Source: Malacoraja senta
Lineage: Eukaryota
Direction: 5' to 3'
NCBI GenBank assembly: GCA_038087875.1
Contig: CM075989.1
Span: 12,526,001 to 12,586,000, forward strand
Length of the DNA stretch: 60,000 bases
Positions 5,061-45,399 of this stretch are shown in pieces. The stretch's first letter is position 1. The number at the start of each line of letters is the position of its first letter. A program made the position numbers and the translations under genes. The notes under the pieces are model-generated. The model was not told where the DNA came from. It made no database searches and was given only the letters and a program-made list of their open reading frames with translations.

Positions 5061-5261
5061 TTCTTTGCCATCTCAAAGAGTCATAGACATACTGCACAGA
5101 ACCAGACCCTTCAGGCTAACTTGCGAGTGGTGACCAATATGCCCTATCTACGCTATTCCCACCTGTCCATATTTGGCTCATATCCCTCAAACCTTTTGCT
5201 ATCCATGTACCTGTCCAAATGTCTTTTGAAAATTGTTATAGGCCCTGCCTCAACTACCTTC

Positions 5262-13760: not shown

Positions 13761-14237
13761 TAGCAACTGTAGCATTACCTTTACTACATGCCAATTTTAA
13801 TTCCTGATTCAACTTGCACCTTACATCCAGGCTACTGTTTGGGGGCCTGTAGATAAGTCCCATTAGGGTATTTTTACCATTCCAATTCCTTAGTTCTATC
13901 CATACTGACTCCACATCACCTGTTTCAATGTCACCCCTTGCAAGGGACTGAATTTCATTCCTCACCAACAGAGCTACCCCACCCCCTCTACTCACCTGTC
14001 TGCCTTTTCGATAGGAGGTATACCCTTGAATATTCAGTTCCCAGCCTTGGCCCTCTTGCAGCCAAGTCTCTGTAATTCCCACAACATCATACTTGCCCAT
14101 TTCTAACTGAGCCTCAAGCTCATCCACTTTATTTCTTATACTTCGCGCATTCATATACAACACTTTGACCGCGGTATTCACCTCCCCTCTCGCACCGCTC
14201 GCAATTGGCTCTGACCTTACTCTCTTATCCCTTCTCG

Positions 14238-14345
14238 AAAATATTGTCTATCCATGTTCTTCAGAGCTGCTGCCTGAGCTGTGGAGTTACTGCAGCACTT
14301 TGTGTTTTAGAAAATATTTCAGCATCTGCAGTTCCTTGTGTCTTG
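14238..14345 (+). mobile_element. Remainder of the Penelope pLTR split by CR1 A
   Basis: gctgctgcctgagctgtggagttactgcagcac..agcatctgcagttccttg matches the pLTR tail in the copy at 57957-58094. Confidence 0.75.
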
Positions 14346-23430: not shown

Positions 23431-23434
23431 CCTG

Positions 23435-24130
23435 CTGTACCATTTGTTAAGATCATGGCTGCTGTTCTTTAACCTCAACTTTGCACTCCTACCTACCTGC
23501 GCTAACATAAGGGCATAGGAAATAGAAACAGGAGTTAGCTAACAGTCCCTCTGAGCCTGCTCTACCATTCATTGAGATCATGGCTGATATTTTGTCTCAG
23601 TGCCATTTTTCAGTACTGTCCCCATGCTCTTGGTTCCCTCAATGACTACAAATCTGTTGGTCAATGTTTTGAATGAATTCAAGAACTAAGCCTCCACAGT
23701 CATTGGGGGAGGTGAATTCCAAAGATTCACCATCCTTTGAGTGACAAAGTTTCTCCTCCGCTACGATTGAAGCAGTCTACTCCTAATACTGAAATAGTGC
23801 CCCTATCTAGATTCCTTCACCAAGGAAATCTTTCTCCATGCTTCTTGCCACTTACGGTCTTTAGGAATTATATATGTTTTGACTGGCGCTTCTCTCATTC
23901 TTAATTGAAGAGAATTATATCCCTGATTTCTTCTCGGTCTCTCCTTATAGGGCAAACCTACCATGCCTGGAACCAGGTAAATTTATCTTTGCTGCACTCC
24001 CTCTTTGGCAAGTATATCCTTTCTTGGAAAATGAAACATAATACTTCAGTCTTCACAAGATCCTTTATAAATGTAGTAGGAATAATCTTGTAATACTCTT
24101 TTCGTCTGAAGGCCAAAGGCTGTGCTGATG
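23435..24130 (-). mobile_element. Old CR1 3' fragments
   Basis: CR1-like 3'UTR (gagcctgctctaccattcattgagatcatggctga) and decayed ORF2 C-terminus. Confidence 0.65.
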
Positions 24131-24169
24131 CGCTGTGAATTTCATAATCTAAGGTGAATGGCTCTTGCA

Positions 24170-24660
24170 ATATTCAAAGTGGTCCACATTTTCCAGAGAC
24201 TCGTCATGCACCTTTATTATTTGGGGATGGTGTTGTACAGTGAGGACAGGTTTGTAGAGAACCTATGTTTTCCAATGGTGTGCAAGATTTATTCCCTTGA
24301 ATGCCTTGGTGAATGAGTGGACAATAAATTGAAGCTTAGTCTTCCAATGTGTGCATACATAAACACTGTCTGAGTACTGCAGTTCTGTGCCTGAAGTTGG
24401 GGTATCTTTATTCTGGAATGGTGGATGTACAGTAGGTTATGGATTCACTGGTCATGCACTGCATGCCATCATTTAACTGGTGTCTGATGTAAATACATTT
24501 CTGTAATCAGCCAAATCTGAGAAGAATGCATCATAATCTCTTTCAATTGGCAGAGTCAACGATTTAGGAAGGTTAAAAGATACTGCTCCTCGCATTTCCA
24601 GAGAGTTCATGTCGTAAAAATCATGTCCACTAATGTCTCTAATGGGCAGAATTCACACAG
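24170..24660 (-). mobile_element. Old RTE-clade RT fragment
   Basis: Minus strand reads VDMIFT..KCEEQ..ILLRFG..LNDGM..ELQYSD. Confidence 0.55.
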
Positions 24661-24789
24661 TGATTATGGGAGCAGCTCCTTGACAACTAGGAGGAGGAAC
24701 CTGAGGAGGACCCTGATGAAGACTTTCCCTGAAGGAATAAGGATGGATGTTTGTGTTGTTGATATATTTCCCATGGATCGTACATTAAA

Positions 24790-25310
24790 GGGATTGATTC
24801 CCATTTGGTAGGTACACATTATCCTAAACTCAATTTGGTGAGCGTTGTCAATGTACCCCTGTCCAACACTCTAACCAGACTCTCCACCTTTGACTCCATC
24901 CACACCACGATGCTTCTGAAAAGCAGCCAACACAATCAAAGACTTGTCCCACCACTATCATTCTTTCATTTCCCTGCTCCAGTCAGCAAAAAGGCACAGA
25001 AGTTTGTCAGCACGCGCTACCAGACTGAAGAGCAGTTTCTGCTCTTCCGGTATTAGGCTTCTGAATGCTCTCTATGGAACTGATGCACTACAATGCTGAG
25101 AACTTTATTCTGTATTCCGTATATTCCCCCTTGTTCTACCTATTCTGCTAGTTCAGTTTACATGACTATCTTTGCACCATGCTGCTGTTTTGCATCCTTC
25201 ATGGCATTTATTGTTGTATCTATCAATACTGTGTATACTGTTTACTTTATGAGCAACATGAACAAGGAATTGCCTTGCACCCTGGTGATATATCACTTCA
25301 AACTAATGTG
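24790..25310 (+). mobile_element. Old Rex1-like 3' fragment
   Basis: ttctgaaaagcagccaacacaatcaaagac..accagactgaagagcagtttc resembles the Rex1 ORF C-terminus. Confidence 0.5.
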
Positions 25311-25389
25311 AATCTCTCTTTATACCTAATACACTCCAAATGAGTCAATATCCTGGTGAACCCCTTCTACATCCTCGTAAAAACCTCCA

Positions 25390-26047
25390 CATCCCTCGCC
25401 AACAGTCTGTCTGTTCTTTCTTCTGTTTTTGCTATTTTATGTGCGTGTTAAAAGAGTATGTTTCTGTGTTCCTTGGTTTGTTGTATGTGGGGGGTCTGGG
25501 GGAAACTTTTTTCAATCTCTTACCTCGACGGAGATGCCATTTTTTTTTCATATCGTATTTCCGTCCCCACTGCGGCCTAACATCGTGGAGTGGCGCGGCT
25601 TTTCCTGGAGACCGACCCGGCGTTTCAACTGTGAGCGCGGCGCGGACTTACTATCGTGGAGCTTGCAATCCTTTGCCGGGGATCAACTGTGGAGAGCCCG
25701 CGGTCCCTGGTTAGAAACCGATTCGGGAGCTCGAAGCCACGGAGAGTTTCAACCATCCCGACGCGGGTGTTTCGATCACCCTGACGCGAGGGCTTCGGAT
25801 CGCCGGCTGCGGGAGCTTTGATGGTCCAGATTGCAGATGTTTTGACAGCCCCGACCGGGAGGATAAAGAGAGAGGATTAGACATTATTACCTTCCATCAC
25901 AGTGAGGAATATGGGGAGCCACTGTTAACTATTATTTCATGTGGTTGTGTGTCTTGTTGCTTTTCACTTAGTATGGCTGTATGGTAACTCAAATTTCACT
26001 GTACCTTAATTGGTACACGTGACAATAAACTGACCTTGAAACCTTGA
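25390..26047 (+). mobile_element. GC-rich non-autonomous retroposon with Rex1-type 3' end
   Basis: Shares head (cctcgccaacagtctgtc), T-rich tract and ccttccatcacagtgaggaat motif with the copies at 40.3 and 43.4 kb; AATAAA + (ACCTTGA) tail. Confidence 0.7.
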
Positions 26048-26115
26048 TATTGCAGTGGCCAAAACTTCACACAGTAATCCACATTTGGCCTCACAAAGGT
26101 TTCATGCAGATGCAA

Positions 26116-27555
26116 CATACGATACGATAGAACTTAATTTATCCCAGGAGGGAAAATGATCTGCCAACAGTCATAAAAACCCAAAATACATGAAACATGA
26201 AATTAAAGTGACGAGTGGAAAGAATTGGGGATGTGCAAAGAGGGGGGAGGGGAGTCGGCCTCAGTCTACCCCATGACAGAAGGGGGAGGAGTTGTATTGT
26301 TTGAGAGCCACAGGTAAGAAGGGTCTCGTGTAGTTCTGTCCTGCATCTTCGTGAAAGCAGACTGTTGCTGCAGTTACTCCTCAGGTTGACCAGTGTGTCA
26401 TGGTGGGGGTGAGCTGTATTGTCCAGGATGCTCTGCAGTTTGAGGAGCATCATCCCCTCCAAGACCACCTCCCATGATTCCGACTCTGTCCCCCGGACGG
26501 AGCCAGTCTTCCTGATGAGTTTGTTAATCCTATTGGCGTCTGCGGCCTTCGCCCTGCTGCCCCAGCACACGACGGCAACGAAGATGACACTGGCTACCAC
26601 TGATTGGTAGAACATCTGCAGCATCTTACTACAGACGTTGAAGGAGCAGAGCCTTCTCAAAAAGTACAGCCAGCTCTTCCCTTCTTGTACTGGGCCTCAA
26701 CGTTCCTGGACCAGTCCAGTTTACTGTCCAGGTACACTCCAAAGTATTTGTGCTCCCTGGTAAACTGCACATCCACACCATTGATGGAGATAGGGGACAG
26801 GGTTGTTTCTCCCCTCCTAATGTCCACCACCAACTCCTTAGTCTTGTTGGTGTTGAGCTGCAGGTGATTCAGCGCACACCCCTCAACAAAGTCATTGACC
26901 ACACCTCTGTAGTCAGCTTCCCTCCACTCACTGATGCAGCCCACAATTGCAGAGTCATCTGAAAACTTCAGCAGGTTCAGGAGTCCAAGTTATATCTGAA
27001 GTCCGAGGTGTAGATGGTGAAAAGGAAGGGAGAGAGGACGGTCCCCTGTGGGGCCCCTGTGTTGCCCACTACCATGTCCGAGACACAGTTCTGTAGCCTG
27101 ACATATTGTAGTCGTCCAGTCAGGTAGTTGGTGATCCAGGACTCCAATGGAGCATCCACTTGCATCTTCATCAATTTGCTCCCTAGCAGTGCAGGCCGGA
27201 TGGTGTTAAAAGCACTGGAGAAGTAAACAAACACATGAGTATCAGAATGCTTCCCAGCTTATCCCGGTGAGCATAGGAACGATGGAGCAGGTGGATGATG
27301 GCGTCCTCAACCCCTATCTTTGTTTGGTAAATGAACTGCAGGGGGTCCAGGTTGGGTTTAACCAGGGGCTGCACGTGAGTGAGCACCATCCTCTCCAGGG
27401 ACTTCATGGTGTGTGAAGTTAGCCCCACCGGTCTGTAGTCATTGGAGGAGCTGGGGTGCATCCTCTTTGGTACAGGAACCAGGCAGGATGTCTTCCAAAT
27501 CACAGGAACCCTCTCCAGGCTCAGACTCGGGCTGAAGATATGCTGGAGCTGGAGT
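26116..27555 (-). mobile_element. Degraded 5'-truncated Rex1/Babar LINE inserted in an old CR1
   Basis: NDYRPVGLT, FSSAFNTI, GAPQGTVLSPFLF, LQLNTNKTKELVVD, MFYQSVVAS; (TATCG)n tail; CR1 sequence on both sides (26050-26115, 27556-27750). Confidence 0.9.
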
Positions 27556-28197
27556 ATATGACTTCCCAACTTTTATACTTAAAGCCCTGACTAATGAGGG
27601 CAAGCATGCCTTCTTGACCACCCTATCCATTTGTGTTGCCACCCTCAGGGAGCAGTGGATTTGTACCCCAAATTCCCTCAAGAGACCTACCATTTACTGT
27701 ATACTTTCCTTTTGCATTTGACCTCCCTAAATGCAACACCTCACAGTTGTAATGGAACTACTAACACTATTCTTGTTCAATTATGATTGAATCCATTTAG
27801 CCGTCGCTGTTGTCAAATCCCAAAATTGGCATGTCTTATACGCCAAAATTCATGCAATATTTAGAAAGAATCGCAGACCTGTGGATCAAACCAGATATAT
27901 TGTTGATAAATATTTCTATAAATACTATTGCTTTGGAAATTATTTTTAAAACTTTTATAATTATCTCTTTGCAATCCTGTAAATACACTTTGTTCAGTAA
28001 CAATGCAATAAATATGGTAGGTTAATTAAATCTAGTGGAATCCCCTTGTGCCTGCTCTCATTACTATTGTCAGTGTAACTCTGTTCAAAACTAACTCAAG
28101 GAAAATAACTATTGAGTAGCATGTAAATAGGTCACCTGACTAATTGTCATTGTTCCTTTTAAATGTTAATGATGCCTCTATGCATATTTGTTACTAA

Positions 28198-31100: not shown

Positions 31101-31945
31101 CTTTGATTTGCATGATACTTTCTGTTTTTTAAGTTGTACTGAATGGAATTAGGAGCTAAGAGCAGCCCCCGTTGTTTCCTCTTTATAATTGGCCACTAGG
31201 AAATTGTGCTTGTATTGTGTCAAGCTGCCCTGGGAGGAAGCAGCTGGCTGTTGCTTATTCTCCACCCGATGTATGATGGCTGGGATCCAAAATCTCACAA
31301 AGGATATTTTTCGTGTATGTACAAACTTATTTGCAAATGTGGTTGAATGGTGTTTACATAATGATTTTGTGTGGCATTGATAAAACTGACAACAGCATTC
31401 TTTTAGGAAGTAGAATTCGAAATTCAAATTCCAATTTAAATTTTCTCTCAGGAGTGTGCGCTTCTCTTGCTATTAGCTTAGCATGTTGATGAATTAACTA
31501 ATTATCTATCTCTTGGCTTCAGTCTTCTTTAAAGCTACTAATACTTTGGTACTCTGGAAAACATTTTTTGATCCAGATATACCAACACATTAGTGTTCTG
31601 TAAATAGAAATACTGTATTAAAAATATTTGACTAGTTATTGAAAAGGGTAACTTACATTATTACAAGATATTGCAGGAACAACATAGGATTGGAAATGCT
31701 GCTTTAGCTCAAATGATATATATTTATCATGAATATATAATTTACATATCAACAATTTCATTTATATTAATTGGGTCATTTAAACTGGAGCAGATGGATT
31801 GACGTCTATGATTTTGCAAATTTAATTGTTTCAATGTCGAACAGCATTACTACAGCATCAGTACATCATTAAAGAGTCTCACCTTTCAGATGCCTCAACT
31901 AAAACAGAAAACATTGACCTGTTGGTCAGATGCAAAACTGTTGTC

Positions 31946-32083
31946 TTCTTCTTCTTTCGTGTGGCGTGCACAGCCTAAAGTTGTTGGACAACTTGTTCTA
32001 TTTGATCTTCTGTTTGTGCACGTCGAGTTGATTGCATTAGTCGAAACAGGGCGGACCACATGAAGGTTGCAATCTTCCACCCC
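31946..32083 (-). mobile_element. HDV-like-ribozyme-headed short retroposon, copy 1
   Basis: TSD AAAACTGTTGTC (31934-31945 / 32084-32095); (GAA)n tail; homologous to the copies at 32424 and 44689. Confidence 0.92.
32030..32083 (-). ncRNA. Predicted minimal HDV-like ribozyme (best-preserved copy)
   Basis: GGGGUGG(P1) AA GAUUGCA(P2) ACC(P3) UUCAUGU(L3) GGU(P3') CCGCCCU(P1') GU UUCGA CUAA(J4/2) UGCAAUC(P2'). Confidence 0.85.
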
Positions 32084-32423
32084 AAAACTGTTGTCAAAGA
32101 CACTTCATAATTAACTGCTTTATGGTGGCAACAATCACTCATCCACAAAATATAGCCCTCGTTTGGTATATTCAGTCACAGGATATGTGCAGATGTAAAG
32201 AATTAATGTATATATATAAAACAAAGTTGCCCTGATACATTTGATCCAAGACGTGAAATGGGGGCATTGGAAACAGCTCACTCCCAGCAGAGTTCTCGCT
32301 GCAAAATTGTTGTGCAGCAGGAACAAAAATAATGTATTGCTATTTTAAAATATTATTTTTTCCAAGACATTTAATGTGTGTGGATAGATGAACAAGTCAG
32401 ATAGTAGTTTTATAGATAATACT

Positions 32424-32565
32424 TCTTCTTCTTCTTGCGTATGGCGTGCACAGCCTAAAGTTGTAGGGCAACTGGTTCTATTTGATCTTATTTGATTGTG
32501 CACGCCGGGTTGATTGCATTCGTCGAAACTGGGCGGACCACGTGAAGGTTGCAATCTTCCACCTC
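32424..32565 (-). mobile_element. HDV-like-ribozyme-headed short retroposon, copy 2
   Basis: TSD ATAG(A/T)TAATACT (32412-32423 / 32566-32577); (GAA)n tail. Confidence 0.92.
32512..32565 (-). ncRNA. Predicted minimal HDV-like ribozyme (two P1 substitutions)
   Basis: GAGGUGG AA GAUUGCA ACC UUCACGU GGU CCGCCCA GU UUCGA CGAA UGCAAUC. Confidence 0.75.
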
Positions 32566-34434
32566 ATAGTTAATACTGAAAAGTCAGCTCAGTATCAGGA
32601 CTAATTAAAGTGTTAACAGCAATATAACGTTTCAATGATAATTTATGCACCATCTCCACAGTTTAATTGTGTTTGTTCGTTTAAGACATTCCATAAAATA
32701 TCCATTTAGTATAATATAGAACTTTGCTGCCAAACCTTTGTGGACATAAATACACTTATTTTATTACTTTAATAAATGGTGTACTTTTTAAGTAGAACCA
32801 ATGAAAAGCATCTTGCCAAGCAAGCTGATTGGCAGTATTCTAAACTTGCACTCAGTGTCTTAAGATATTGATGTAATATGCAAAACACTCAAATATCTTT
32901 GCCATTAGTCGCTGCCTTTAAGGACCTACAATAGTCAGCAATTTCCTGTGCTGAAGCTCTGTCCACCTATGCACAATTGTACTATCTCAGGTTAGGAAAT
33001 TTCAAGTTCAGAAGAAGGGTGGTTGATACCTTCAGAACCAGAGACGGGCTGATATTTTCTTCCTCTGGAAAGAATGATTAGAGTTTATCCATTCCTCTTC
33101 AGTAATATTACCCATCAATCAAACTGGTGATTGTATCTGAGTTTCCTGTTTTCAGATTCATGGCTCACAAATGTAATAATCTTGCCTGGCAGGCATTTCC
33201 CTGCACTGACGGGCAATTGCATGGTTCACACGTAGCTGCAAGCTGCTTAACTGTTTGAGAAATATGCAAATCTAGCAATTTTCTTATCCAAATGTAGAAA
33301 ATATGTTTACATAACATTTTCACACATCTTGCCTTACTACCTACTCATAAGTACGCACCAATACTATGTTTCCTACTCGTAACAGGGTGTAACTTCCGCT
33401 TGATCCAGCAAATAGCTTCCAACTATACTAAAGTATAATCAGGTACAAATTTGCCCCTGCCTTCTGCCTTCACCTGTCCATACCCTGGTACCAAAGCAAC
33501 TCTGATAACATTATCAATCCACAGCTCGCCTGAAAGTGCAGAACCTTGAATAACAATTTATAGCAGCGACAGTGGTACCAGACCACAACAACACTCCCAA
33601 TATCAAATGAGTCACAGAAATTAATGAATTTCTGTTCGAAAATCATCAGAAATTCTTGTCACTCCTGTAAATGCATTTCTGGTGCATTAAGCAACGTCTT
33701 ATTTTGCAGCCATGACTTTCTAAACTATTAATTCAGTAAGTCCACGAACTATTATTGAGGGTTTCGTTCATTGTTAATGTGATGGGTTGCACTGCACCTT
33801 GTCATCAGGAGTTATGCTAAGTGCTGCATATTTCCCTAAGGGCTGGTATAGCAGGATGAATTGTACGAGGAGGATGTTAGATAACGGCTATTAGCAACAT
33901 TCAGTTGAAGACTGCTACCTGGACATTCTTGTGCTGAGACTGATGCAAGCGAATGAGCTTAGAACAGCAATGAGAAAACACAAATGGCGAGCCTGATTAG
34001 GTAATGATATTGCTGTCTTTAAATTGGTTGTATGTTAAGGAAATCTCTGTCAATTCATAAGCAAATGCGTACAGCAAGCATATTCCTGAAATTGTCAGGC
34101 AGTCAATAAGTCAGTTTATTGTGTACTGTTGTTTAAGTTTCAGCACTTTGAGCATTACATAAAAATGTATTTTTTTAAAATAGAAATAAAGACATGCAAT
34201 GAGACCATTCAGACCATCTAGCCTATGCCGGCTCTCAGAGAAATTCTATCAACCCCATTCCCCCATTTATTTCCTGTTGCTTTTTCTCCCTCTCCTGCAA
34301 CCCACTGACAGCCCCCTGATTTTTCCCCTCTCCTTACCAACACCAGCGATAATTTACACTAACCAATTAATCTACAAAACGGCACCGGATTGTTTTTTAC
34401 CTTGTAATTCAGTCTATTGGGGGGGGGGGGGGTG

Positions 34435-34740
34435 ACCTGACACTTTCATTCTCCATTCAACCCCCACTATGACATAATGGTTTAAGGCATCCTGCAATAT
34501 AACAATGAGACTTAATGCAAGCAAGCTTGAGGAATAGGATCTCATCTTCCGTCTTGGAAACTTGCAGTCTTCTGGATCCAATATTGAATGCTACAGTTAA
34601 TGAAGGAAACGGTCACTGCGAAATGCTGAAAGGGAAATATGTGTTGTGGTGGAGTCTCTTCGAAGGTGTTGGAAATTGCAGAAAATGATCTGGGAGGAAG
34701 GTGAGGACCTTCTTTGTTCTGGGAGTGTGAGCAGAACTGT
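34435..34740. mobile_element. Old Penelope fragments in opposite orientations
   Basis: + strand KLEE.DLIFRLGNLQSSG; - strand FQHLRRDSTTTHI..LSAFRSDR. Confidence 0.6.
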
Positions 34741-35169
34741 GGGAAATGGATGAGGTGTCATAGAATCCATGTGGGCTAGTGCCCATCCATACCAGTCCCA
34801 TTTGCCTGCATTTGACCCATATCTCTTTAATCCTTTTCTATCCATGTACCTTTCCAAATGCCTTTTAAATGTTGTTATTGTGCCTGCTTCAATCACATGA
34901 GGTCAAGGGCTTTGTTAACAATGGAAGAAGGAAAACATTTCACTGTAACCTGAATGGAAAGTCCACAGCTGTGCAAATGTTACAGAGAAGAATGTAATGC
35001 ATTCCTTGCAGGAGGCAGGGTGGGCTGTGAACCACATCATAGCAAACCAGCATGTTGTACACCATTTTGATTTAAATTTGAAAACATTTTTAGCTGAGGA
35101 CACATATAGTTGTGTCCAAAGTGCAGTCATAATATGACTGGTCCAGGAACTTGCACCAGTCCTGACCAA

Positions 35170-35648
35170 GTGTAGCCTAAGACATTGTGGGAAACCAGCA
35201 AATAAATTACTGGGGCCCTGGCAGAGATATTTGTATAATCGTTAGCCATGAGGAATGTATTGCAAGATTGGTAAGTGGCTAATTTTGTGCCTTTATTTCA
35301 GAAGGGCTTCAAGAATAAATCAGGGAACTACAGGCTGGTGAGCTTGATATCAGTGGCCGTAAGATTACTGGAGGGAATTCTGTGAGATAGGATCTATGTG
35401 CATTTGGAAAGTAATGGGCTGATTAAGGATGGTTAGCTTGGCTTGGTGTGGAAAATCAAACAGTGGGTGGTTGGTACATGGAACAGCATGCCAGAGAAAG
35501 TGGTAGAAGCATGTACAATTACAACATTTGGCTAGATCATGGACAGGAAAGGTTTAGAGGGATATGTGCCAAACACAGGCCAATGGGACTAGCTCAGGTA
35601 GGTAATTGGCTGGCACAGACGAGTTGGGCCAAAGCTCTATAACTCTAT
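35170..35648 (+). mobile_element. Old CR1 fragment (internally deleted)
   Basis: DW.VANFVPLFQKG..GNYRLVSLISV..KLLEGIL followed by a CR1 3' end. Confidence 0.75.
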
Positions 35649-35736
35649 TTCATTCCTGTCCTGGATTCATCTGGGGGTTCCTTGGGTTCACAGCTGAAGT
35701 GGTTGTGATGCATTGTGCAACAACTCTTTTACCATC

Positions 35737-35915
35737 TGTATGAAGGATCTGCAGATGCTGGTTTAAACCAAAGATAGACACAAAATGCTGGAGTAACTCA
35801 GCGGGACAGGCAACAAAATACGAGATGCTGTTCCTACAATTTGCGCTGGGCCTCACTCTGATAATGGAGGAGGCCCAAGACAGAGTGTGGGAATGGGAGG
35901 GGGAGTTAGAGTGTT
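35737..35915 (-). mobile_element. Penelope pLTR / endonuclease C-terminal fragment
   Basis: gatagacacaaaatgctggagtaactcagc also occurs at 54014-54043. Confidence 0.7.
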
Positions 35916-37555
35916 TAACACTTTAACCTTAACCCAGCGCAAATTGGACCAACCACCATTAACACATCTGTTCCAGTTTCGCAAGCTGTATTTGCATCCC
36001 AGCCTCCACAAACGTTTGAGGAAGAGTGTTCTTGATTTACGGGCTCTTTGTATGGAAAACTGCATTCTAATTTCACTTCTGAAAGTCTTTGTTCTAATTC
36101 TCAAGTTTCTCCATCCGATGATACTGTTCTCAGCCTCGTCTTATCAAAATAAATCAGTAAAATCTCAGAGACCAGACTAGGTTGGAAAGCAACAGAGAAT
36201 GCGAGTGAACCTATGCTTATCATTTAATTCTCTCCCCCATATAATTAGGATAAATCTCCACTCCCATTTCAAGTTCCAGATAACCTTGCTCAGATGCATT
36301 TCCCAAAACTTAACATAGCTGCTCTAGAATGAAGTCTGACCAAGGCTTTGTACAACTGAAGGAAAGCATAGTGGGATGAAGTAGTAATTATTTTTCCGTT
36401 TTTCTCTATTGATAACTTTATATTTACCTCATGATCCTTATTGTTCTTCTACTGTTTTCAGCTTCTCACATTTAAAAACGCTTCATTTTCTCTCATTATT
36501 TTAAAATTATATATTTTAATGAAATTTTCAAATATGCAAGTATATTTTCTCCAGATTATTTAATTTACTTACAAGATTCACATTTACATCCGGGTGGAAT
36601 TACTTTTTCCTATACATATATTCCATGACCAAACTGTTCAAGGATTTTTTATATGTTCGGGCCAACAATGGACTGACCATCTGCCGTTGACATGGCCATG
36701 TCAACATTCAGTGCATCTCTCAGCAGGTAATCCTGGAATATAATTCTCCACATTGTACTCATTTGCCAGATTTCACAATTCCTTCAGCTTCTCTCATTTT
36801 TGTGTAGTAGCTAACCTGTTATTAACAAAGAGTTGTACGTTTTCATAACATAGAATGATCTTGAGAGAAAATACTCCAAACTAATGGATGTCAGTTAAGG
36901 CCATAATTTTATCTGTGGAAGTCATTGAGCAAACTCTGTCTCTCCAAGAAAGTCCCTTGATCCTCTCACTGCTTCAGCCTATGGGATATATGTGCAGACC
37001 CAGTGTTACTGCCCAAGTTAAAATCAATTAAGTAACACGGGGGCCTGATCAGCAAATTGTGAGACTGTAGTTCGTCCTTTCTGGGTAATTGAGAAACCAG
37101 ATTACAGAGGGTACTCCATATTAAACCTGTTCTCCCAAGTAAGTTTGGTTAAAATTCATCCAAGAGCAATGCGTTGTGTTTGAGAATTGTTTTAAATTAA
37201 TATGTTATTGGGGATATATTAGTGTCTGGAATAATGGAATCAGGTAATGATTGATAGTGAGGTGGTTACACCATTAATTGTGGACATGGTTCGAAGGCAG
37301 CAGGTTCTTTTCAGAAGAATATGATAATAATGCTGCATTTTGTTTGTGCTATACTGGCAGATATATTTGCATGAGAGCTGCTTATGATTGGAACAGAATG
37401 GAAACTAATTCTCCTGAATGAAGAGCTACCTGCATATGTCACCTCTTATTGTAAACTGGCATGTTATTGCTGTCATTATTGCGTATTACAAGATAAGTAT
37501 TTGCTGATAGATCCGAGTATAAACAGTGACATCGACGGTTTCTCCAGAATGAAAT

Positions 37556-37672
37556 CTGGTCTCAAGAAAGTTCTCGACCCGAAACGTCACCCATTCCTTC
37601 TCTCCAGAGATGCTGCCTGTTCCACTGAGCTACATCATTTTGTTTTTATCTTCGGTTTAAACCAGTTCTTTC
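37556..37672 (+). mobile_element. Stand-alone Penelope pLTR fragment with degenerate hammerhead motif
   Basis: ggt ctcaaga aagttctcgaccc gaaacgtc acc + ctccagagatgctgcctg. Confidence 0.75.
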
Positions 37673-38133
37673 CTAATCAAGCGATTGGCATTGGACATCT
37701 GAGCATCATTTGCTCTTCGTTGCCGAACCATAAAAGCATATATTTTTCCTGAGTACATTTACTAAAGAAACTAGATGTAAACTAAGGGAGGAAGCTAGCA
37801 ACCATGTTTTGTTTGTATTGTATTTGTGTTTTTGGCACCAGGCTGCTCTGCTGACGGGAGCTAACAGCAGTGTGAAAACTGAAGCGAGTCAATTTAGTTG
37901 GACAGTTAATCCATCTTCACTCAGTTGCAGATGTGCAAGGAGTCAGCAAGCTCAACTTTCTGCTGACTTTAACACTCTGTCACAAGGAAGCTAAGCATAA
38001 GAAAGGTTGGCAGACCTTGAATTAACAAATTACTCTCCATGTACAAGTTTTCAGTCATAATTTTTATTTTTAGAAAGGACTAGGCCATCTGAATTATGAT
38101 CACCCTACATTTAAACTGAAATCAGTTTCATAA

Positions 38134-38567
38134 CTGATGGGCTTGTACAAACTGGGATTTAGGATGAGAGGGGATCTTACTGAAACATACAAGATTATTA
38201 AGGGATTGGACACACTAGAGGCAGGAAACATGTTCCCGATGTTGGGGGAGTCCAGAACCAGGGGCCACAGTTTAAGAATAAGGGTTTGGCCATTTAGAAT
38301 GGAGATGAGGAAAAAACATTTTCACCCAAGAGTTGTGAATCTGTGGAATTCTCTGCCTCAGAAGGCAGTGGAGGCAATTCTCTGGATGCTTTCAAGACAG
38401 AGTGAGATAGAGCTCTTAAAGATAGCAGAGTCAAGGGATTTGGGGTGAAGGCAGGAACGGGATACTGATTGTGGATGATCAGCCATGATCACAGTGAATG
38501 ACGGAGCTGGCTCGAAGGGCTGAATGGTCTACTCCTGCACCTATTGTCTATTGTTTATTGTCTATTG
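38134..38567 (+). mobile_element. 5'-truncated CR1 LINE 3' end
   Basis: MRGDLTETYKIIKGLD..SRTRGHSLRI; (CTATTGT)n tail; same subfamily as 3400-4106. Confidence 0.93.
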
Positions 38568-40294
38568 AAGGTACATCATGAAAAAAACACTTTGAATCTT
38601 GAAACATCCTTTGATTTGGGCAAAGGTTATATCACTTGGGAGCTTGCATGTTTGTTGACAAACTGTACTCTAGAAAGATATCAAGTAGGTTCAGTATACA
38701 AAGTTCTAGTAACAGTTGTACCATGAAGTGGGGGATGATTGAAAATAGGCACAACATTAAGGAAATGAAATTCAAGGAGTCAATAAGTTGAAGTTTCATA
38801 TACCCCTGCTTCCACCTATCCATGCACCACACCCTACAGAGCCCCATCCCTGTCTCCATGCACCCAAAAGAGTGCAAGCCCAAATGTCCAGTTCAGTAAA
38901 GAAAAGGCTTTCTCAATAGTGATTTTGTGACAGTTGCAAAAAGTAGAATTATGGACATTGGATGAAAACAAGATTTGGCGCAGTAAGGAATCCCCATTTC
39001 ATAGATCACCTGCTGCTACTCATTCTGGTAAAAGGCTAATGGGACCTTGGTTCAGCATGAAACAGCAACTTCAGTCAAAGAAAGGAGAAATTTGAGAAAA
39101 ACAGTTATCGGGCATCACCTTGTCAAATCAAGCAAAGTGTTGAGAAAGACATTTTGTCTCCACCTTTGCAGTCTCTGCAGAATGATGCATTGTATGTTTT
39201 TTGAATGTGTACTAAATACAAGCACTATAAGAAATACTCGTCAGCACAATTTTTTTAATGTGGTAGATATGAGTGTCCGATGTTCAGAACACATTTATTA
39301 TGATTTAAGTGTCTACATCACTTTGGCTTTAATTGTGAAAGCGAGTCGTGTTGGACAATTTGTAATGCTCATGAATATCTGAAAAGCTCTCATTTGACAG
39401 AAGCAGACTGTGCCAGTATTTGAAGTCTCTCTCAGTAGCTGCTTAATAAATTCCTCATGTCCCACAGTGGGGCATTAGAGTCTTATCTCTGCACACCTGC
39501 TCGCCTGATAATCTGGCTTTCTACTGTGTCTGTATGCAGTCACTCACAGCAAAAAATATCATGAATGATGTCTCGCTTTTGCCCTCCCAGAAATGGGTCC
39601 CTCTTTCCCCTCGGACAGCATTAAATTATTCTTTGTAATTAACAGGAGATTTTCAGCAGTGGATTCTATTGTAATACAAATGTTCAGTGTGAGGCACTGT
39701 AGGCTTTCTCTGACGGCTGCAAATGGATTGAAACCAAAAAAGAAATTGCTGTTTCTGAACACAGCGAGTTGGATTAGGATTTTCCTTTCTAAATGCATCG
39801 CATTTTGCAATTTTTTTTCATTGCTTCTCTTAGTTTGCTGAGCACCATTCATTTCACAGAGAGCAAGCAGGTGCCCTTTTTAAATTACTTGTTATTTTTG
39901 AGATACTTCTTTCCTTAGCTCTCATGTTATTACCATTCAACTGATGAAAAGCTAAGCAGCTGACCTTGTCCCAGGCCTGGGAGAAGCTGCAGCTGGCTGC
40001 AATCCCTTCCCTCTTCCTTCATGGCAGACTGGCATCACTTTAATCATCAGCTCCTCTAAATTATGATATTTAAACTAAGGTGTGTAGGGGTAGTAAGCCA
40101 GAGACATGAAACAAGTGAAGGGAGATGGGAACAGTATGCTTATTTTTTTAATTCTTGGGAACAATGATAACTGCATCTCACTGAAGGCACTCCCCATTCA
40201 TGCCTTCTTTATTCATTCTGTTAATAATAGTATGAAGAACCTTGTCAGTGTTTATTTTTACAGTGAAGTAATATGGATGTCAGAATAAGACCAC

Positions 40295-41038
40295 CAGGTG
40301 CACCGAGGAGATGGCAGCCCTGCCGGCAGTCTATTCATTTTTTCTTTCTATTTGTTATTTTTTAGTGCGTTAAAAGTTTGTTTTAATGTTCTTCGGTATG
40401 TTTTATGTGGGGAGGAGGGCATCGGGGGAAACATTTTCAAGTTCCTACCTTCCCGGAGATGTGATCAATTTTTGGATCACTTTCTCCGAGCTCTGCGGCC
40501 TACCATCCCTGGAGCTGGAGGCCTCCTCGGACTGCCGTGAGTCCCACCACGGGGCGCGGACGTAACAACGGTGCGGATCCCTTGCCTGGGATCGTTCCCA
40601 CCGCGATCACCGTGGACTTACAATCAAGGGCTCGCAGTCTCGGGAGAGGCTAGTCGGGAGCTCCAATGCGGCGGAAGGCTCGACCATCCCCGATGCGAGG
40701 TTCGATCATCTGGTGTGGGGGAGCTGACATTCCGCTGATGCAGGAGCTGATCGCCTCGATGTGGAGTGCCCGAACGCCGCCGGCTACGGGAGTCAAGATC
40801 GTCCCGCCAAAGGAGGGCTCGAGGCCCCCGACCGAGGAAGAACTAAGGGAAGGACTTGAACTTTATTTCGCCTTCCTTCACAGTGAGGAATGTGTAGGAG
40901 TCACTGTGGTGGATGTTCATGTTAAAATGTGTTTTTGAGTGATTTGTTGCTTTTAATTGTATGACTGGCCTGGCCAATGAAATTCCTCGTATGTTGCAAA
41001 ACATACCTGCCGAATAAAGTGTGATTCTGATACTGAAT
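40295..41038 (+). mobile_element. GC-rich non-autonomous retroposon
   Basis: Head gagatggcagccctgcc, T-rich tract, GC-rich body, ccttccttcacagtgaggaatgtg motif, AATAAA + short tail. Confidence 0.7.
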
Positions 41039-41269
41039 TATAATTTCTTGGCACAATAGAGCTGCACATGCACAGCCAAACAATCCCAGTTTCTGGTGAG
41101 AAATAAATCCAGATATGGGTTGATGGCATTCTGGCAGCAAATCCCATCTACAGGCTACTCTTTCATAATTCACATCATCTGATCGAGATTCACACCCAGC
41201 TGTAGGATGTAGAAGAATTATCCTCTAACAGATATCTTCAACCAAGCGGCTATGTTGACAGCCGTTTTG

Positions 41270-42940
41270 CCCCACATGTTCTCAGATTAAACTCCATCTG
41301 CCATTTCTCCACCCATTTCTGTAACTGATATATATATTCCGCGGTATACTTCAACAGCCTTCCTCACAGTCCGTGAACTTACTAACCAACCAATCTACGT
41401 TCAGATCCCTGCAGAACTCTACTGGTCGTAGATCCCCAGTCTGAACATTGTCCTTCCAATACAACCGCTGTTTTCTATTCTTAAACCAGTTCCAAATTCA
41501 TATGATCAAGTTGGTGTTAATCCCATGCATTTTAATCTTCCGGATCAGCCTATCATGGGGGATTTTATCAATGCCTTACTAAAATTTGTGTGGCCAACAT
41601 CCACCGCCCTACCCTCATTGAATGATCACTTTCGCCAATTCTTCAAAAAACCTGATCAAGTTAGTAAGGAACAACTGGCATATACAAAGCTATGCTAACT
41701 GTCCCTAATTAACCCATTCTCTTCCAAACTATCTTGAAGTATCCTTTCCCAATAGTGTCTCTACTACTGATGTGAGGCTCACCGTCCTATAATTCCCTAG
41801 ATTCTCTCTACTTTTTTTTTAATTTAAAAAAATATATATATATTTATTAGAAGTACATTACATTACAACCACATACATTAGTACTCGTCACATATATCTT
41901 CTTACAATTAATGTACTCCGTTTGTTTTTTACACTAATAAAGGGAAAGGATGAGATTGAGAGAAAGAAGAAAGTGAAGGAAAAGGTGAAAGTGTAAAAAA
42001 CGTGACAACAAGAAAGAACGAAGACCCTATAAGAACAAAATTAAAAACAAAAGAAAAAGAGTTAAGAAATAGACCCTAGAAAAGAAGAAGAAAGAGAAAG
42101 AGGGAAAAGAGAAAAACAAATAGTTTTTGTAAGCATCACGCAAAAGGGACATACCAACTCTCGAACTTTCATCCCCCCTTACCTGACCTCAGGTTTTTTT
42201 TAAGGTACTTTTGCACCCTATATTTGTAGTAATACTATAAATGCAGACCACGTCAGGTGGAAGTGATCTGGTTTACCTGCCAGGAGGAGTCTTATCTCTT
42301 CTAGGTGTAATGTTTTGAACATATTTGAAATCCACATGTTTATAGTTGGTATTGGAGCCTTTTTCCAAAATTTTAGGATTAGCTTTTTTCCAGTTATTAA
42401 CCCATAGTCTATTAGTTTCTACTTTCCTTTTTAAACAAAGGACAGCATTAGCTACTCTCCAATCTTCTAGGACTTTGCCACAGCCTTGACAAAGATCTTA
42501 ACAACTTCTCTAGCCAGTTGCAATCTCCTCTCTTCCCGCTAATAACCTGGTGCTGGGCATTTATCCCACTTTATGCTCTTCAAGAGCCCCAAAACCACCT
42601 TAATCTCAACTGCCCCTGCATATTAAAATTCTCCACACTGATCTCACTGTCCTCCATGTCCTTCTCCTTGGTGAATACAGATGCAAAGTACTCATTTTAG
42701 TACCTCGCCTACATCCCCAAGCTCCAAATACAAATTCCTTCCTTTATCCTTGATTACCCACTTGCTTTTAATGTTGGCATAAAAATCCTTCGGATTTTCC
42801 TTAATCCGACTCGCCAAAGCCATTTCATTTCATTTCCCCTTTTTATAGCCCTTTTCACCTTTCAAGTATATCAGTTTTTAAGGTAAGAAGACCAGAACTG
42901 TACACAACAGTTATCTCACCAAGGCCCGATGTAATTGTAT
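41270..42940 (-). mobile_element. Old CR1 LINE RT region, interrupted by an L1 fragment
   Basis: GNYRTVSLTSVVD, EDWRVANAVLCL and related decayed motifs. Confidence 0.75.
41813..42417 (-). mobile_element. 5'-truncated L1-clade LINE (ORF2 C-terminus, 3'UTR, poly-A)
   Basis: GKKLILKFWKKAPIPTINMW..LHLEEI..FHLTWSAFI*; poly-A tail; TSD TCTACT(TT) at 41807 / 42418. Confidence 0.85.
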
Positions 42941-43364
42941 CAAGATACTAATCTTTACTTAATGTATTATGAACATGTGGCTAGAGGGATAGTATAGGAG
43001 TGAGATTTAGACTTCAAAGGCATCAGAATCTGTTCTGGGGAAGATTGGGTCTGTACAAGTGGACGGGTTACACACAGGCAATGAGACTCTTATCCTCCTA
43101 AGTGTTTGTTGGTGTTATTAGATAAGTTTAAACAAATATGGCAAAAGTTGAGAGGAAACACAGATAAAAATGAAAGATAGAAATATAAAGCCAAATCGGA
43201 AAACTGAGGAAAGAAGGGGAAGAAGAATATGGGTCCAGTAGATGGGGTTATGAAAAGAGAGGTGGTAGAAAGACAAAATCAAGAGCTCCTCCATCTAAAT
43301 GTACATGGCATCTGAAACTAATGAACTAACAACACAAATAGAGATAAACAGATATAAACATAAC

Positions 43365-44097
43365 CATTATCATAATCAAAATCGTAATTTATTAGCCATT
43401 TGTTGTAATTTATTTGTTGTAATTTATTGTAACATATGAGGAATTTTGTTTGCCATAGTCATACCAAAAAGGAGACAAGACGCACAACTACATCAAAATT
43501 TGACATAAACATCCACAAGAGCGGCTCCTCCCCATTCCCCTCTGTGATGGAAGGCAATAAAGTCTTATCTTCTTTCCTCCTTTTCTCCCGCGGTCAGGGA
43601 GTTGAACCATCCGCAGTCGGGGAGATTGAAGCTCCCACATCCGGCGATCGAAGCTCCCGCATCGAGGCAATCGAAGCTCCCACGATCGGGGCGGTTGAAG
43701 CTCTTGCGGCTTGGAGCTCCCGAAGTCGGTCACTAACCAGGGACCGCAAGCTCCACGTAGTTAAAGCGCGGGCTCCCGTGGTTGGAGCACAGAGGTCGAT
43801 CCCTGGCAAAGGGATTGCAAGCTCCATGATGCTAAGTCCACAGGCACACGCAGTCGGATCTCCCGGGGTTACAGCAAGAGGCCGCCAGCTCCTCGATGTT
43901 GAACCTCAGTGCAGACAGATATGACATGGAAAAAGTCGCATCTCCGTCGAGGAGAGAGATTAAAAAGTCCCCCTCCCCCCTCCCACATGATACAAAACTA
44001 AAGATAAACTAAAACATACATTTTACAACAAACTAAAAACAGAAAGAAGGAAAATGACGAGACAGACCGTTGGCGAGGCAGCCATTGTACCCCTGTG
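43365..44097 (-). mobile_element. GC-rich non-autonomous retroposon
   Basis: Minus-strand head caatggctgcctcgccaacggtctgtc, ccttccatcacagaggggaatg motif, 3' end similar to the 40.3 kb copy. Confidence 0.7.
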
Positions 44098-44688
44098 GGC
44101 AGTTGGAGACATAGTTATAAGGGCATCAAAGCTAGGAATGCAATATTCAGAGATAATTATTTTTTTAGAATGAACACAAGACTGTAGCAACAGGAGTAGG
44201 CCACTCAGTTCCTCAAGCCTGCCCCACCATTCAATATAATCTTGGCAGATCTCTCTCTCTCTTCTGTGACTGTTCCCCATAATCCTCAATTCCTCGATCT
44301 TTCAAATATTTATCTATCTCCACGTTCAATATATTTGAAAAATTGGATCTCCCCAGGTGGGAGAGAATTCTTCCTCAGTAGCAGAGTTTTTCAGTGGTTC
44401 ATTCCCTTCAGAGTATACTTTTCTGGGCACTTCAGTTTTAAATGTCCAGACCCTTATTTTTCCATTATGTCACCTTATTTGTGATTCTTCCACCAGTGGA
44501 AGCATCTACCCTGTCAAGGCCCCTTAGGAGCATACGTTTTAATAAATTCACCCCCTGTTCTTCTTAACTTCAAGGAATACAGACCCAAACAGCATAGCTT
44601 CACATGGTAGGAAAACTCTCTCATTGTAAAATGTAACATGGTAAATTATCTTTCATCTTTTCAGTTAAGGGCACACAGTATTCCAGGT

Positions 44689-44742
44689 GGGGAGGGAGAT
44701 TGCAACCTTCACGTGGTCCGCCCTGTTTCAACGAATGCAATC
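44689..44742 (+). ncRNA. Predicted minimal HDV-like ribozyme (one P1 mismatch)
   Basis: GGGGAGG GA GAUUGCA ACC UUCACGU GGU CCGCCCU GU UUCAA CGAA UGCAAUC. Confidence 0.8.
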
Positions 44743-44831
44743 AACCTGGCGTGCACAATCAAATAAGATCAAATAGAACAAGTTGTCCAACAACTTTCGG
44801 CTGTGCATGCCATACGCAAGAAGAAGAAGAT
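44689..44831 (+). mobile_element. HDV-like-ribozyme-headed short retroposon, copy 3
   Basis: TSD GTATTCCAGGT (44678-44688 / 44832-44842); (GAA)n tail. Confidence 0.92.
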
Positions 44832-45399
44832 GTATTCCAGGTGTAGCCCCTCTAACACCCTGTAAAACTGTAACCGAACCTCACTAGTCCAATAAAGGCC
44901 AACATGCTTTTTATCTTCTTAACTACTTGTTGGAACTGCCTAGTAACATTTTGTGATTCATGCACTAGAACCCCTGGATCCCTCTGAAGTTCACTCATTT
45001 GCAGTCTCACTCCCTTTAGATAATAATAATCTGGCTATGATTCCTCTTCCTGAAGTGCATGTCCTCATATTTCCCCTCATTTAACTCCATTTGCCAGGTT
45101 ATTTTTGCTCTATCAATATCCCTTTGGAGAATTACAATGTCTTCATCACAGCATACTCCTTCACCAATTATTGTATGATTAGTAAACTTGGAAACCATAC
45201 CTTTTGTCAGACAAGAAGAAAAATGTGGTGGGGTATCTCTGCTAATGAGATGTGAACAAAGTACAATTTGGGCATAGTTTTTTTTTAAAAGCAATGGGTA
45301 GACGATGATGGTAGGAGTAATGCATTGGCTTCCAAACAGTAGCCGCATTGTAGAAAAGGAAAATATGCTAGAAACTATGGATCTATGTAACAGAAAGCT

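What the first reader, a model, noticed from the sequence alone, without database searches (positions are those of the whole stretch)
31946..44831. A ~140-bp SINE-like family whose 5' head is a minimal HDV-like self-cleaving ribozyme (3 copies)
Seen in sequence: three dispersed copies (31946-32083 -, 32424-32565 -, 44689-44831 +), each with a different 11-12 bp TSD and a (GAA)n tail. The first 54 nt pair as a nested double pseudoknot: P1 GGGGUGG/CCGCCCU with the G1.U wobble, P2 GAUUGCA/UGCAAUC, P3 ACC/GGU, a 7-nt L3 UUCAYGU with the U..G positions of the reverse wobble and a single C-G P1.1 pair, and J4/2 C(G/U)AA holding the catalytic C. P4 is reduced to a ~5-nt loop. All three copies begin at G1, the predicted cleavage site. 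No tRNA A/B boxes are visible. Established: HDV-like ribozymes process the 5' ends of R2, RTE and some other non-LTR elements, and R2 has ribozyme-headed short derivatives in insects. Inference: this is a promoter-less vertebrate SINE that cuts itself out of read-through transcripts and is mobilised by a LINE (RTE suggested by the long TSDs and GAA tail). I cannot tell whether the repeat is already catalogued.
Basis: partly seen in the sequence, partly recalled or inferred. Interest (0 to 1): 0.93.

Follow-up and report, generated by a model that had tools for sequence, protein, structure and literature searches.

The report
Ribozyme-headed mini-copies of an RTE LINE
The three ~140-bp repeats belong to a family of over 5,000 gene-less short copies of an RTE-like jumping gene whose first 54 bases fold like a very small HDV-type self-cutting RNA, a known trick of such elements seen here in an unusually minimal form.

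Summary
There are three copies with target-site duplications (TSDs) and (GAA)n tails, and every full-length copy examined starts at G1 of the proposed ribozyme. At least 5,010 copies lie in the 1.94-Gb genome.

The element is not a classical SINE. It is an ORF-less internal-deletion derivative of an RTE-like LINE ("RTE1"). It keeps the LINE's ~95-nt 5' UTR, including the 54-nt head, and its last ~40 nt (last codons, stop, ~20-nt 3' UTR, (GAA)n).

A second RTE-like family ("RTE2", ~40% protein identity, intact ORFs) also starts exactly at G1 of an HDV-like fold, with a full P4 hairpin. Between the two heads, L3 (UUCACGU), the P1.1 pair and the catalytic C with its two following As in J4/2 are invariant. 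Eight of 17 P1-P3 base pairs change on both sides and stay paired. This is real covariation support.

The head is therefore a P4-less HDV-like ribozyme. Cleavage itself is untested.

The youngest subfamily carries tail changes that resemble RTE2's 3' end, which hints at a switch of partner.

HDV-like ribozymes on RTE LINEs and ribozyme-headed non-autonomous derivatives are already published. The minimal form, the scale and the probable vertebrate host are new.

The parts
31945..32083 (-). Copy A, youngest subfamily ('A'), 139 nt, complete from G1 to the (GAA)n tail
   Evidence: The 40 best genomic matches are 99-100% identical to it.
32030..32083 (-). 54-nt HDV-like head of copy A: P1 32077-32083 with 32048-32054; P2 32068-32074 with 32030-32036; P3 32065-32067 with 32055-32057; L3 32058-32064; G37 at 32047; 6-nt linker in place of P4 at 32041-32046; J4/2 at 32037-32040
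   Evidence: Descriptor hit with G1 at 32083. Pair counts.
32040..32040 (-). Predicted catalytic cytosine (C44, first base of J4/2)
   Evidence: C in 94 of the 100 copies listed (counted by hand). Invariant in alignment A2.
31945..31985 (-). 3' module of copy A, homologous to the LINE's 3' end (last codons, TAG stop, ~20-nt 3' UTR, GAA repeats)
32084..32094 (.). 5' TSD of copy A; the 3' copy lies at 31934-31944
32424..32565 (-). Copy B, older subfamily ('B'). Head at 32512-32565 with P1 damaged (G2>A, U36>A)
   Evidence: One contig of a related organism's run reaches 31 nt across its 3' junction (record 28).
32566..32577 (.). 5' TSD of copy B; the 3' copy lies at 32412-32423 with 1 mismatch
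44689..44831 (+). Head at 44689-44742 with U5>A
44678..44688 (.). 5' TSD of the copy at 44689; the 3' copy lies at 44832-44842

Best explanation
The repeat is a non-autonomous, ORF-less internal-deletion derivative of an RTE-like LINE (RTE1). It consists of the LINE's 5' UTR fused to its last ~40 nt.

Its first 54 nt form a minimal HDV-like self-cleaving ribozyme in which a 6-nt linker replaces P4.

The proposed cycle is as follows:
1. A copy lying in a transcribed region is made as part of a longer RNA.
2. The ribozyme cuts immediately 5' of G1.
3. The LINE reverse transcriptase recognises the 3' end ((GAA)n plus the short 3' UTR) and copies the ~140-nt RNA into a nick by target-primed reverse transcription.
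4. The new insert starts at G1 and is flanked by 9-13-bp TSDs.

Shown here: the anatomy, the copy number, the exact 5' ends, the sharing of both ends with the LINE, and covariation of the fold between two LINE families.

Inferred: the cleavage itself, transcription by read-through, and which LINE protein moves the youngest subfamily.
For: (1) 5' ends.
- 39 of the 40 best genomic matches start at query base 1 and one starts at base 2.
- All 31 copies read begin at the same position directly after their TSD. 29 begin GGGGTGG and 2 have one changed base there.
- A tail-anchored sample of 71 tails on contig C1 gave 49 with the head core at the expected distance (paired by hand). Of the other 22, 16 are full-length copies with mutated heads, 3 are LINE 3' ends, 1 is a truncated copy, 1 is nested and 1 is unclear.

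(2) LINE partner.
- L088 and L108 show coding sequence running into the shared tail, with the stop codon inside it.
- L112 has head, then short-element body, then ATG, then an AP-endonuclease domain, then RT (Pfam Exo_endo_phos_2 1.7e-8 and RVT_1 3.3e-13).
- L117 is a LINE 5' end that starts at G1. The other 6 of the 7 LINE 5' junctions found are truncated at various points.
- A 72%-identical relative is a 1019-aa ORF on a 3344-nt contig.

(3) Second family, RTE2.
- 9 of 10 RTE2 5' ends start GGGGATC after unrelated flanks.
- They fold as P1, P2, P3, L3, an 8-bp P4 hairpin and CGAA.

(4) Covariation between the two heads.
- 97.2% of cells are paired, against 31-45% when the 3' partner is slid.
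- 9 pairs change on both sides; 8 of these are among the 17 P1-P3 pairs.
- L3, G37, the catalytic C and the two As are invariant.

(5) Specificity.
- My HDV-like descriptor gave 0 hits in 10 Mb of random sequence and 0 non-family hits in 647 kb of real sequence, against 44 family heads.
- With P4 allowed it gave 0 hits in 5 Mb of random sequence. It placed G1 at the first base of the element in L117, L125 and L126.
Against: - There is no cleavage assay and there are no RNA 5' ends. The runs available were contigs only.
- Rfam finds no HDV family here.
- Within the family there is no compensatory change: 0 of 18 pairs.
- Decay at the four CpG sites looks largely neutral. At L3 the count is TG 7 against CA 6, and the catalytic C is lost in 6 of 100 copies (hand count).
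- The nested fold of the 54-mer is no better than shuffles (z = +0.92; 168 of 200 shuffles fold as well).
- The covariation rests on two lineages only.
- I wrote the descriptor after seeing the sequence, from recalled HDV features.
- A 6-nt linker plus a single P1.1 pair may fold slowly.
- No intact RTE1 ORF was seen among the copies scored.
Confidence: 0.8

Rival explanations
1. The head is (also or only) an internal promoter, and G1 is a transcription start. The precedent is Pr77 of L1Tc/NARTc, where the same 77 nt act as both promoter and ribozyme. On this view the HDV-like fold is secondary or serves translation or protein binding.
For: The uniform 5' end is what any fixed transcription start would give. 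Read by eye, TTCGA at positions 39-43 weakly recalls a B box. The search listing shows that Pr77 is such a dual element (abstract of PMC3383444).
Against: ARAGORN and Rfam find nothing tRNA-, 5S- or 7SL-like. By eye there is no A box. The LINE-like subfamily has a TTTT run in its body, which is a Pol III stop signal (recalled). A promoter does not explain compensatory changes in three helices with an invariant L3 and an invariant catalytic C and following As in J4/2.
Confidence: 0.1
2. The double-pseudoknot fold is conserved but no longer cleaves in the P4-less lineage. It would serve only as a structural cap, a translation-start element or an RT-binding element, and the 5' end would be made by another nuclease or by the RT stopping at the structure.
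For: P4 is lost and P1.1 is one pair. The review passages report IRES-like and protein-binding roles for R2 and L1Tc ribozymes.
Against: The ORF-less element needs no translation yet keeps the head. All catalytic-core letters are kept in every subfamily representative. P4-less HDV-like ribozymes are reported active in vitro (passages of the theta-ribozyme preprint).
Confidence: 0.08
3. The resemblance to an HDV-like ribozyme is chance.
For: Rfam does not recognise it, and the nested-fold energy is unremarkable.
Against: There were 0 descriptor hits in 10 Mb of random sequence. The fold sits exactly at base 1 of two separate LINE families, with covariation between them.
Confidence: 0.01

Closest known systems
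HDV-like ribozymes at the 5' ends of non-LTR retrotransposons (R2, RTE, Baggins, L1Tc)
   Same: A double-pseudoknot ribozyme sits at base 1 of a promoter-poor LINE, with cleavage predicted exactly at the element's 5' end. The review passages (PMC6765202; PMC7761336) state this for R2, RTE, Baggins and other LINEs.
   Different: Here one lineage has no P4 (54 nt in all). The host is probably a vertebrate. The primary paper (Ruminski et al. 2011) is not held, so I could not check which species and RTE families it lists.
R2 SIDEs and NARTc (ribozyme-headed, ORF-less derivatives of R2 and L1Tc)
   Same: A non-autonomous element made of the LINE's 5' ribozyme region plus its 3' end, moved by the LINE's protein. 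I saw only the search listing and the start of the abstracts of PMC3414825 and PMC3383444.
   Different: The parent here is RTE-type with an AP endonuclease. Copies are dispersed with TSDs rather than sitting in rDNA. There are at least 5,010 copies. The youngest subfamily has a tail that resembles a second LINE family.
Minimal (P4-less) HDV-like ribozymes and theta ribozymes of gut phages
   Same: The P4 domain is missing while the P1-P3 core and the catalytic C in J4/2 are kept. Such forms cleave in vitro (passages of bioRxiv 10.1101/2023.06.13.544163).
   Different: According to that preprint, the known ones come from metagenomes and phages, often next to tRNAs. This one heads a eukaryotic retrotransposon, and a relative with P4 lies in the same genome.
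Perere-3 (RTE clade) with twister variants; hammerhead-bearing SINE-like elements of Schistosoma
   Same: An RTE-type LINE or a SINE-like element with a 5' self-cleaving RNA and TSDs (passages of PMC8501958, and PMC6765202).
   Different: The ribozyme class differs.
LINE/SINE pairs that share 3' ends; Rex3 of teleosts
   Same: The LINE and the short element share a 3' end. Rex3 (RTE clade) has its stop codon 3 nt before (GAA)2 (passages of PMC6274825).
   Different: The tail here is pure (GAA)n after a ~20-nt UTR. The short element has no Pol III head and shares the LINE's 5' end too.

Membership tests
HDV-like (delta-like) self-cleaving ribozymes | Nested double pseudoknot in the order P1, P2, P3, L3, P3', P1', (P4), P2' | tested here: met
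   95.9% of cells paired within the family. 97.2% paired across the two families, with 9 pairs changed on both sides.
HDV-like (delta-like) self-cleaving ribozymes | G1.U wobble closing a 7-bp P1, with the cleavage site 5' of G1 | tested here: met
   G.U in 28 of 34 distinct heads and in 14 of 14 sequences in A2. G1 is the first base of the element. The cleavage itself was not tested.
HDV-like (delta-like) self-cleaving ribozymes | Catalytic C as the first base of J4/2, followed by N-A-A | tested here: met
   C(G/U)AA. Columns C63, A65 and A66 are invariant in A2. C is present in 94 of 100 genomic copies (hand count).
HDV-like (delta-like) self-cleaving ribozymes | L3 of 7-8 nt with U at the first and G at the sixth position, and P1.1 to J1/4 (positions recalled from the HDV structure) | tested here: met
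   L3 is UUCACGU in both families. C22-G37 pairs in 34 of 34 and 14 of 14 sequences. P1.1 is a single pair.
HDV-like (delta-like) self-cleaving ribozymes | P4 helix | tested here: not met
   RTE1 and the short element have a 6-nt linker instead. RTE2 has an 8-bp hairpin. P4 is dispensable in published minimal forms.
HDV-like (delta-like) self-cleaving ribozymes | Divalent-ion-dependent self-scission, lost on changing the catalytic C to U | not testable with these tools
   Needs a bench assay.
Rfam HDV-type families | Match to a curated covariance model | tested here: not met
   0 matches at gathering score in the window. No HDV-type family among the 5 matches at E<=10 in 31900-32620. As far as I recall, these models do not encode pseudoknots and are sequence-specific.
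RTE clade of non-LTR retrotransposons | Single ORF of about 1000 aa with AP endonuclease then RT, and no ORF1 | tested here: met
   Pfam hits. P0001 is 1019 aa with both domains. RTE2 has open frames of 1008-1014 aa.
RTE clade of non-LTR retrotransposons | Element of about 3.2-3.5 kb with a very short 3' UTR and a short-repeat tail | tested here: met
   About 3.06 kb for the copy that lacks its first 7 nt. The stop codon lies about 20 nt before (GAA)n. Relatives sit on contigs of 3.1-3.6 kb.
RTE clade of non-LTR retrotransposons | RT groups with RTE references in a phylogeny | not tested
   No labelled reference sequences were on hand.
Classical SINE | Head derived from tRNA, 7SL or 5S with an internal Pol III promoter | tested here: not met
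   ARAGORN found 0 genes. No such Rfam match. The head is the LINE's own 5' UTR.

The most novel reading that the evidence does not exclude
The ORF-less element has outlived its parent. RTE1 copies look dead, yet the youngest subfamily (99% alike) keeps the RTE1 minimal ribozyme. Its three subfamily-specific changes in the 3' module all move towards the 3' UTR of the intact RTE2 family (CCATACGCAA to CCACACGAAA against RTE2's GACACGAAAA, and CCTAC to CCAAC against RTE2's CCAAC).

This would be a parasite that switched LINE partner by tuning its tail. It would also carry the smallest natural HDV-like ribozyme known from a eukaryote, with its ancestor-like form that still has P4 in the same genome.
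Probability: 0.35. Interest if true: 0.7.

Novelty: new variant of a known kind. Interest (0 to 1): 0.55.

Why it matters
The genome offers a natural pair of HDV-like ribozymes, with and without P4. They share the same L3, the same P1.1 pair and the same catalytic C and following As in J4/2, and differ in their helices. This is ready material for asking what P4 contributes.

According to the preprint read, the origin of minimal HDV-like ribozymes (eukaryotic, bacterial or viral) is open, and it found them only in phage and metagenome data. This element places one in a eukaryotic retrotransposon.

It also shows that a ribozyme-headed, promoter-less mini-element can reach thousands of copies in what is probably a vertebrate genome. 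It may have done so by changing which LINE it exploits.

For annotation, the family should be filed as a LINE-derived non-autonomous element, not as a tRNA-type SINE.

Tried and rejected
- Five pattern searches used 'not' letters to find a LINE sharing the head or the tail. All missed it, because the LINE shares more of both ends with the short element than I had assumed. They returned only deletion variants, nested insertions and 5'-truncated copies.
- A scan of 264 kb of fetched loci for other (GAA)n tails gave nothing useful. The window has none either.
- The abundant family with a 1271-aa ORF is L1-like with an A-rich tail, so it is not the partner.
- No RTE1 or RTE2 copy lies in the window. 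tblastn with P0001 found only RT hits of 23-29% identity, from other LINE types.
- Read laying gave contigs only. It shows no RNA starts, ends or strand. The loose-end table is truncated, so 5' and 3' junction crossings cannot be compared.
- The CpG-asymmetry test for selection within copies was inconclusive (hand count). Only G32>A is strongly skewed (31 CA against 6 TG), and that is a single subfamily founder event.
- The search of earlier findings returned nothing.
- Ruminski et al. 2011 is not held.
- Library searches for the term sets found no description of this element in the titles and abstract starts listed. Dfam and Repbase could not be consulted, so I cannot say it is uncatalogued.
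Full report
**What is in the window.**

Three copies of a ~140-nt repeat are present. A 26-nt head motif and a 25-nt tail motif each match three times and never in 100 shuffles.
- Copy A: 32083 to 31945, minus strand.
- Copy B: 32565 to 32424, minus strand.
- The third copy: 44689 to about 44831, plus strand.

Each has its own 11-12-bp TSD and ends in (GAA)3-4.

Only copy A keeps every pair. Copy B has G2>A and U36>A, and the third copy has U5>A. ARAGORN finds no tRNA gene. Rfam finds nothing at gathering score, and no tRNA, 5S, 7SL or HDV family at E<=10.

**Scale and ends.**

The window lies in a 1.94-Gb assembly. With copy A as query, the 40 best matches are 99-100% identical. 39 start at query base 1 and one at base 2, out of 2,512 first-look candidates.

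In the 30 loci fetched, all 31 copies begin at the same position right after a 9-13-bp TSD and end in (GAA)n. 29 begin GGGGTGG and 2 have one changed base there.

Exact-word counts:

| Word | Matches |
|---|---|
| 22-nt head word | 4,645 |
| 22-nt tail word of the older subfamilies | 3,982 |
| 35-nt head pattern with the four CpG sites left free | 5,010 |

I also took a sample anchored on tails, not heads: the 71 tails in the first 28.3 Mb of contig C1.
- 49 have the head core at the expected distance. I paired these by hand from the listings.
- I fetched the other 22. 16 are full-length copies with mutated heads. 3 are LINE 3' ends. 1 is a copy truncated near position 50. 1 is interrupted by a nested insertion. 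1 is unclear.

So about nine in ten tails belong to copies that still have the head region. That is unusual for LINE-driven insertions and fits a short, well-defined template RNA.

**The autonomous partner (RTE1).**

Five 'not-letter' pattern searches missed it. The tail-anchored sample found it.
- *3' end.* L088 and L108 share about 150 nt of coding sequence that runs into the shared tail. The frame ends ...LDLQL, with the TAG stop inside ACTT-TAG-GCTG. The 3' UTR is therefore only about 20 nt before (GAA)n.
- *Abundance.* This C-terminal peptide has 1,770 first-look candidates in the genome. The 150 that were scored were all significant.
- *5' end.* Walking upstream reached L112. There the head (from base 8) and the body of the LINE-like subfamily are followed by 10 LINE-specific bases, an ATG at about base 103, an AP-endonuclease domain and RT. 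Pfam gives Exo_endo_phos_2 at 1.7e-8 and RVT_1 at 3.3e-13.
- *Truncation.* Of the 7 LINE 5' junctions found, L117 starts at G1 with the full 54-nt head. The other six are truncated at about bases 8, 9, 9-10, 14, 45 and 66. That is the usual behaviour of a LINE.
- *Relatives.* A 72%-identical protein from another source is a 1019-aa ORF with both domains on a 3,344-nt contig. Dozens of relatives at 40-48% identity are about 1,000 aa on contigs of 3.1-3.6 kb.

A single ORF, a length of about 3.1-3.4 kb, a tiny 3' UTR and a short-repeat tail are the RTE architecture, as described for Perere-3 and Rex3 in passages of PMC8501958 and PMC6274825. No phylogeny was made.

The short element is thus the LINE's 5' UTR (about 95 nt) joined to its last ~40 nt. 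Two further subfamilies have remodelled the middle.

**The second family and the covariation.**

Searching the genome with the 1019-aa relative showed RTE1 copies (61-75% identity), all fragmentary or with stops among those scored. It also showed a second family, RTE2, at about 40% identity, with open frames of 1,008-1,014 aa and no stops. Only 45 of 124,185 candidates were scored.

Ten RTE2 5' ends were fetched. Nine begin GGGGATC after unrelated flanks.

Their first 73 nt read as follows:
- P1 GGGGAUC/GAUCCCU
- J1/2 AA
- P2 GGUAGAA/UUCUACC
- P3 GCG/CGC
- L3 UUCACGU
- G
- an 8-bp P4 hairpin
- CGAA

The nested minimum-energy fold returns P1, P3 and P4.

Aligned with six heads of RTE1 and the short element, columns 1-37 need no gap. 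The pair counts:
- 97.2% of cells are paired, against 31-45% with the partner slid by 1-3 columns.
- 0 of 500 shuffles reach the observed paired share or the observed covariation score.
- 9 pairs change on both sides: 3 in P1, 3 in P2, 2 in P3 and 1 at the base of P4.
- L3, G37, the catalytic C and the two As never vary.

This is the signature of a conserved catalytic core with free helices. It is the evidence that the within-family alignment could not give: there, 0 of 18 pairs showed a compensatory change.

My descriptor is post hoc and built from recalled HDV features. It hit nothing in 10 Mb and in 5 Mb of random sequence, and nothing outside the family in 647 kb of real sequence. It placed G1 at the first base of the element in L117, L125 and L126. 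The other 8 RTE2 heads carry point mutations and fail its strict pairing rules.

**Mechanism.**

The best reading is the published one for ribozyme-headed LINEs (passages of PMC6765202 and PMC7761336): co-transcription with host RNA, self-scission 5' of G1, then target-primed reverse transcription from the (GAA)n end. The ORF-less element rides on the same two ends.

Not shown here: cleavage, the polymerase involved, and the 3' end of the RNA. The available runs were contigs, which cannot show RNA ends.

Evidence that cuts the other way:
- The nested-fold energy of the 54-mer is ordinary.
- Rfam is blind to it.
- Decay of genomic copies looks neutral. By my hand count, the catalytic C is lost in 6 of 100 copies, and at L3 the TG and CA products stand at 7 and 6. 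This is expected for dead-on-arrival copies, but it gives no support.

**A possible partner switch.**

The youngest subfamily, to which copy A belongs, differs from the older ones and from RTE1 at three positions of the 3' module. All three changes move towards the RTE2 3' UTR.
- Its end reads CCACACGAAA(GAA)n.
- The older subfamilies and RTE1 read CCATACGCAA(GAA)n.
- RTE2 reads GACACGAAAA(GAA)n.
- Its loop reads CCAAC, as in RTE2, where the older subfamilies read CCTAC.

RTE2 has intact ORFs, and no intact RTE1 was seen. This suggests, but does not show, that the element now uses RTE2's protein. Only two RTE2 3' ends were read.

**Host.**

A CR1-like ORF in the window has named relatives in birds, turtles, a manta ray and a frog at 44-60% identity. 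A vertebrate host is therefore likely. From memory, the repeat landscape looks like that of a cartilaginous fish; this was not tested.

Contigs from runs of four coded organisms (A, B, C and F) hold the element at very high summed depth. One contig of organism B reaches 31 nt across the 3' junction of copy B.

**Novelty.**

The published passages I read already state the following:
- HDV-like ribozymes head RTE and other LINEs.
- Some non-autonomous SINEs use hammerhead or HDV-like ribozymes.
- R2 SIDEs and NARTc are ORF-less derivatives with the parent's ribozyme (listing and abstract starts only).

What appears new:
- A P4-less, 54-nt form in a eukaryotic transposon. The theta-ribozyme preprint reports minimal forms only from phages and metagenomes.
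- Its coexistence with a relative that has P4.
- The copy number.
- The tail shift.

The listings showed no description of this element. Dfam, Repbase and the primary 2011 paper could not be consulted.

Noticed in passing
L120 (G000:C8:937536-937935) and L124 (G000:C4:35489609-35489918), both minus strand: The two RTE2 copies with intact ORFs carry a 26-nt unit (end of P1, then J1/2, P2, P3, L3, P3') repeated 6.2 and 4.2 times in tandem inside the ribozyme (TRF). If the ribozyme still forms, this gives a very long J1/2. Ten other RTE2 5' ends have a single unit. Whether the array acts as a promoter-like monomer array or merely reflects slippage at GATC is unknown.
   Followed up: partly
L062, L064, L066: Three copies have the segment between the two P2 arms inverted, that is, an inversion across the 7-bp inverted repeat GATTGCA/TGCAATC. 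This may be template switching or recombination at the P2 stem.
   Followed up: no
L050, L072, L074 (CR1-like 3' ends) and L059 (L1-like poly-A end): The last 36-55 nt of the element sit directly behind the 3' microsatellite or poly-A of other LINEs. These could be chimeric retrocopies made by template switching, or 5'-truncated insertions into those tails.
   Followed up: no
G000:C7:7612183, C7:7624757, C3:54642472 (listing): 'Mini' variants in which the end of the ribozyme (..TGCAATCAAC) is joined directly to the tail (TTTAGGCTG..), so the whole middle is missing.
   Followed up: no
L121/L122 (G000:C1:165940918-165944356, minus strand): A third RTE-like family (48% identity to P0001, one stop in 1,028 aa) ends in an AAAT-type tail rather than (GAA)n. 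Its 5' region was not examined for a ribozyme.
   Followed up: no
window 3497-14247 and 22440-27572: The window is dense with CR1-like and other LINE ORF fragments on the minus strand. No host gene was identified around the three copies.
   Followed up: partly
L087 (G000:C2:44048300-44050800); listing: A young L1-like family shows many identical-scoring 1,271-aa open frames and an A-rich tail, so a second LINE type may also be active in this genome.
   Followed up: no
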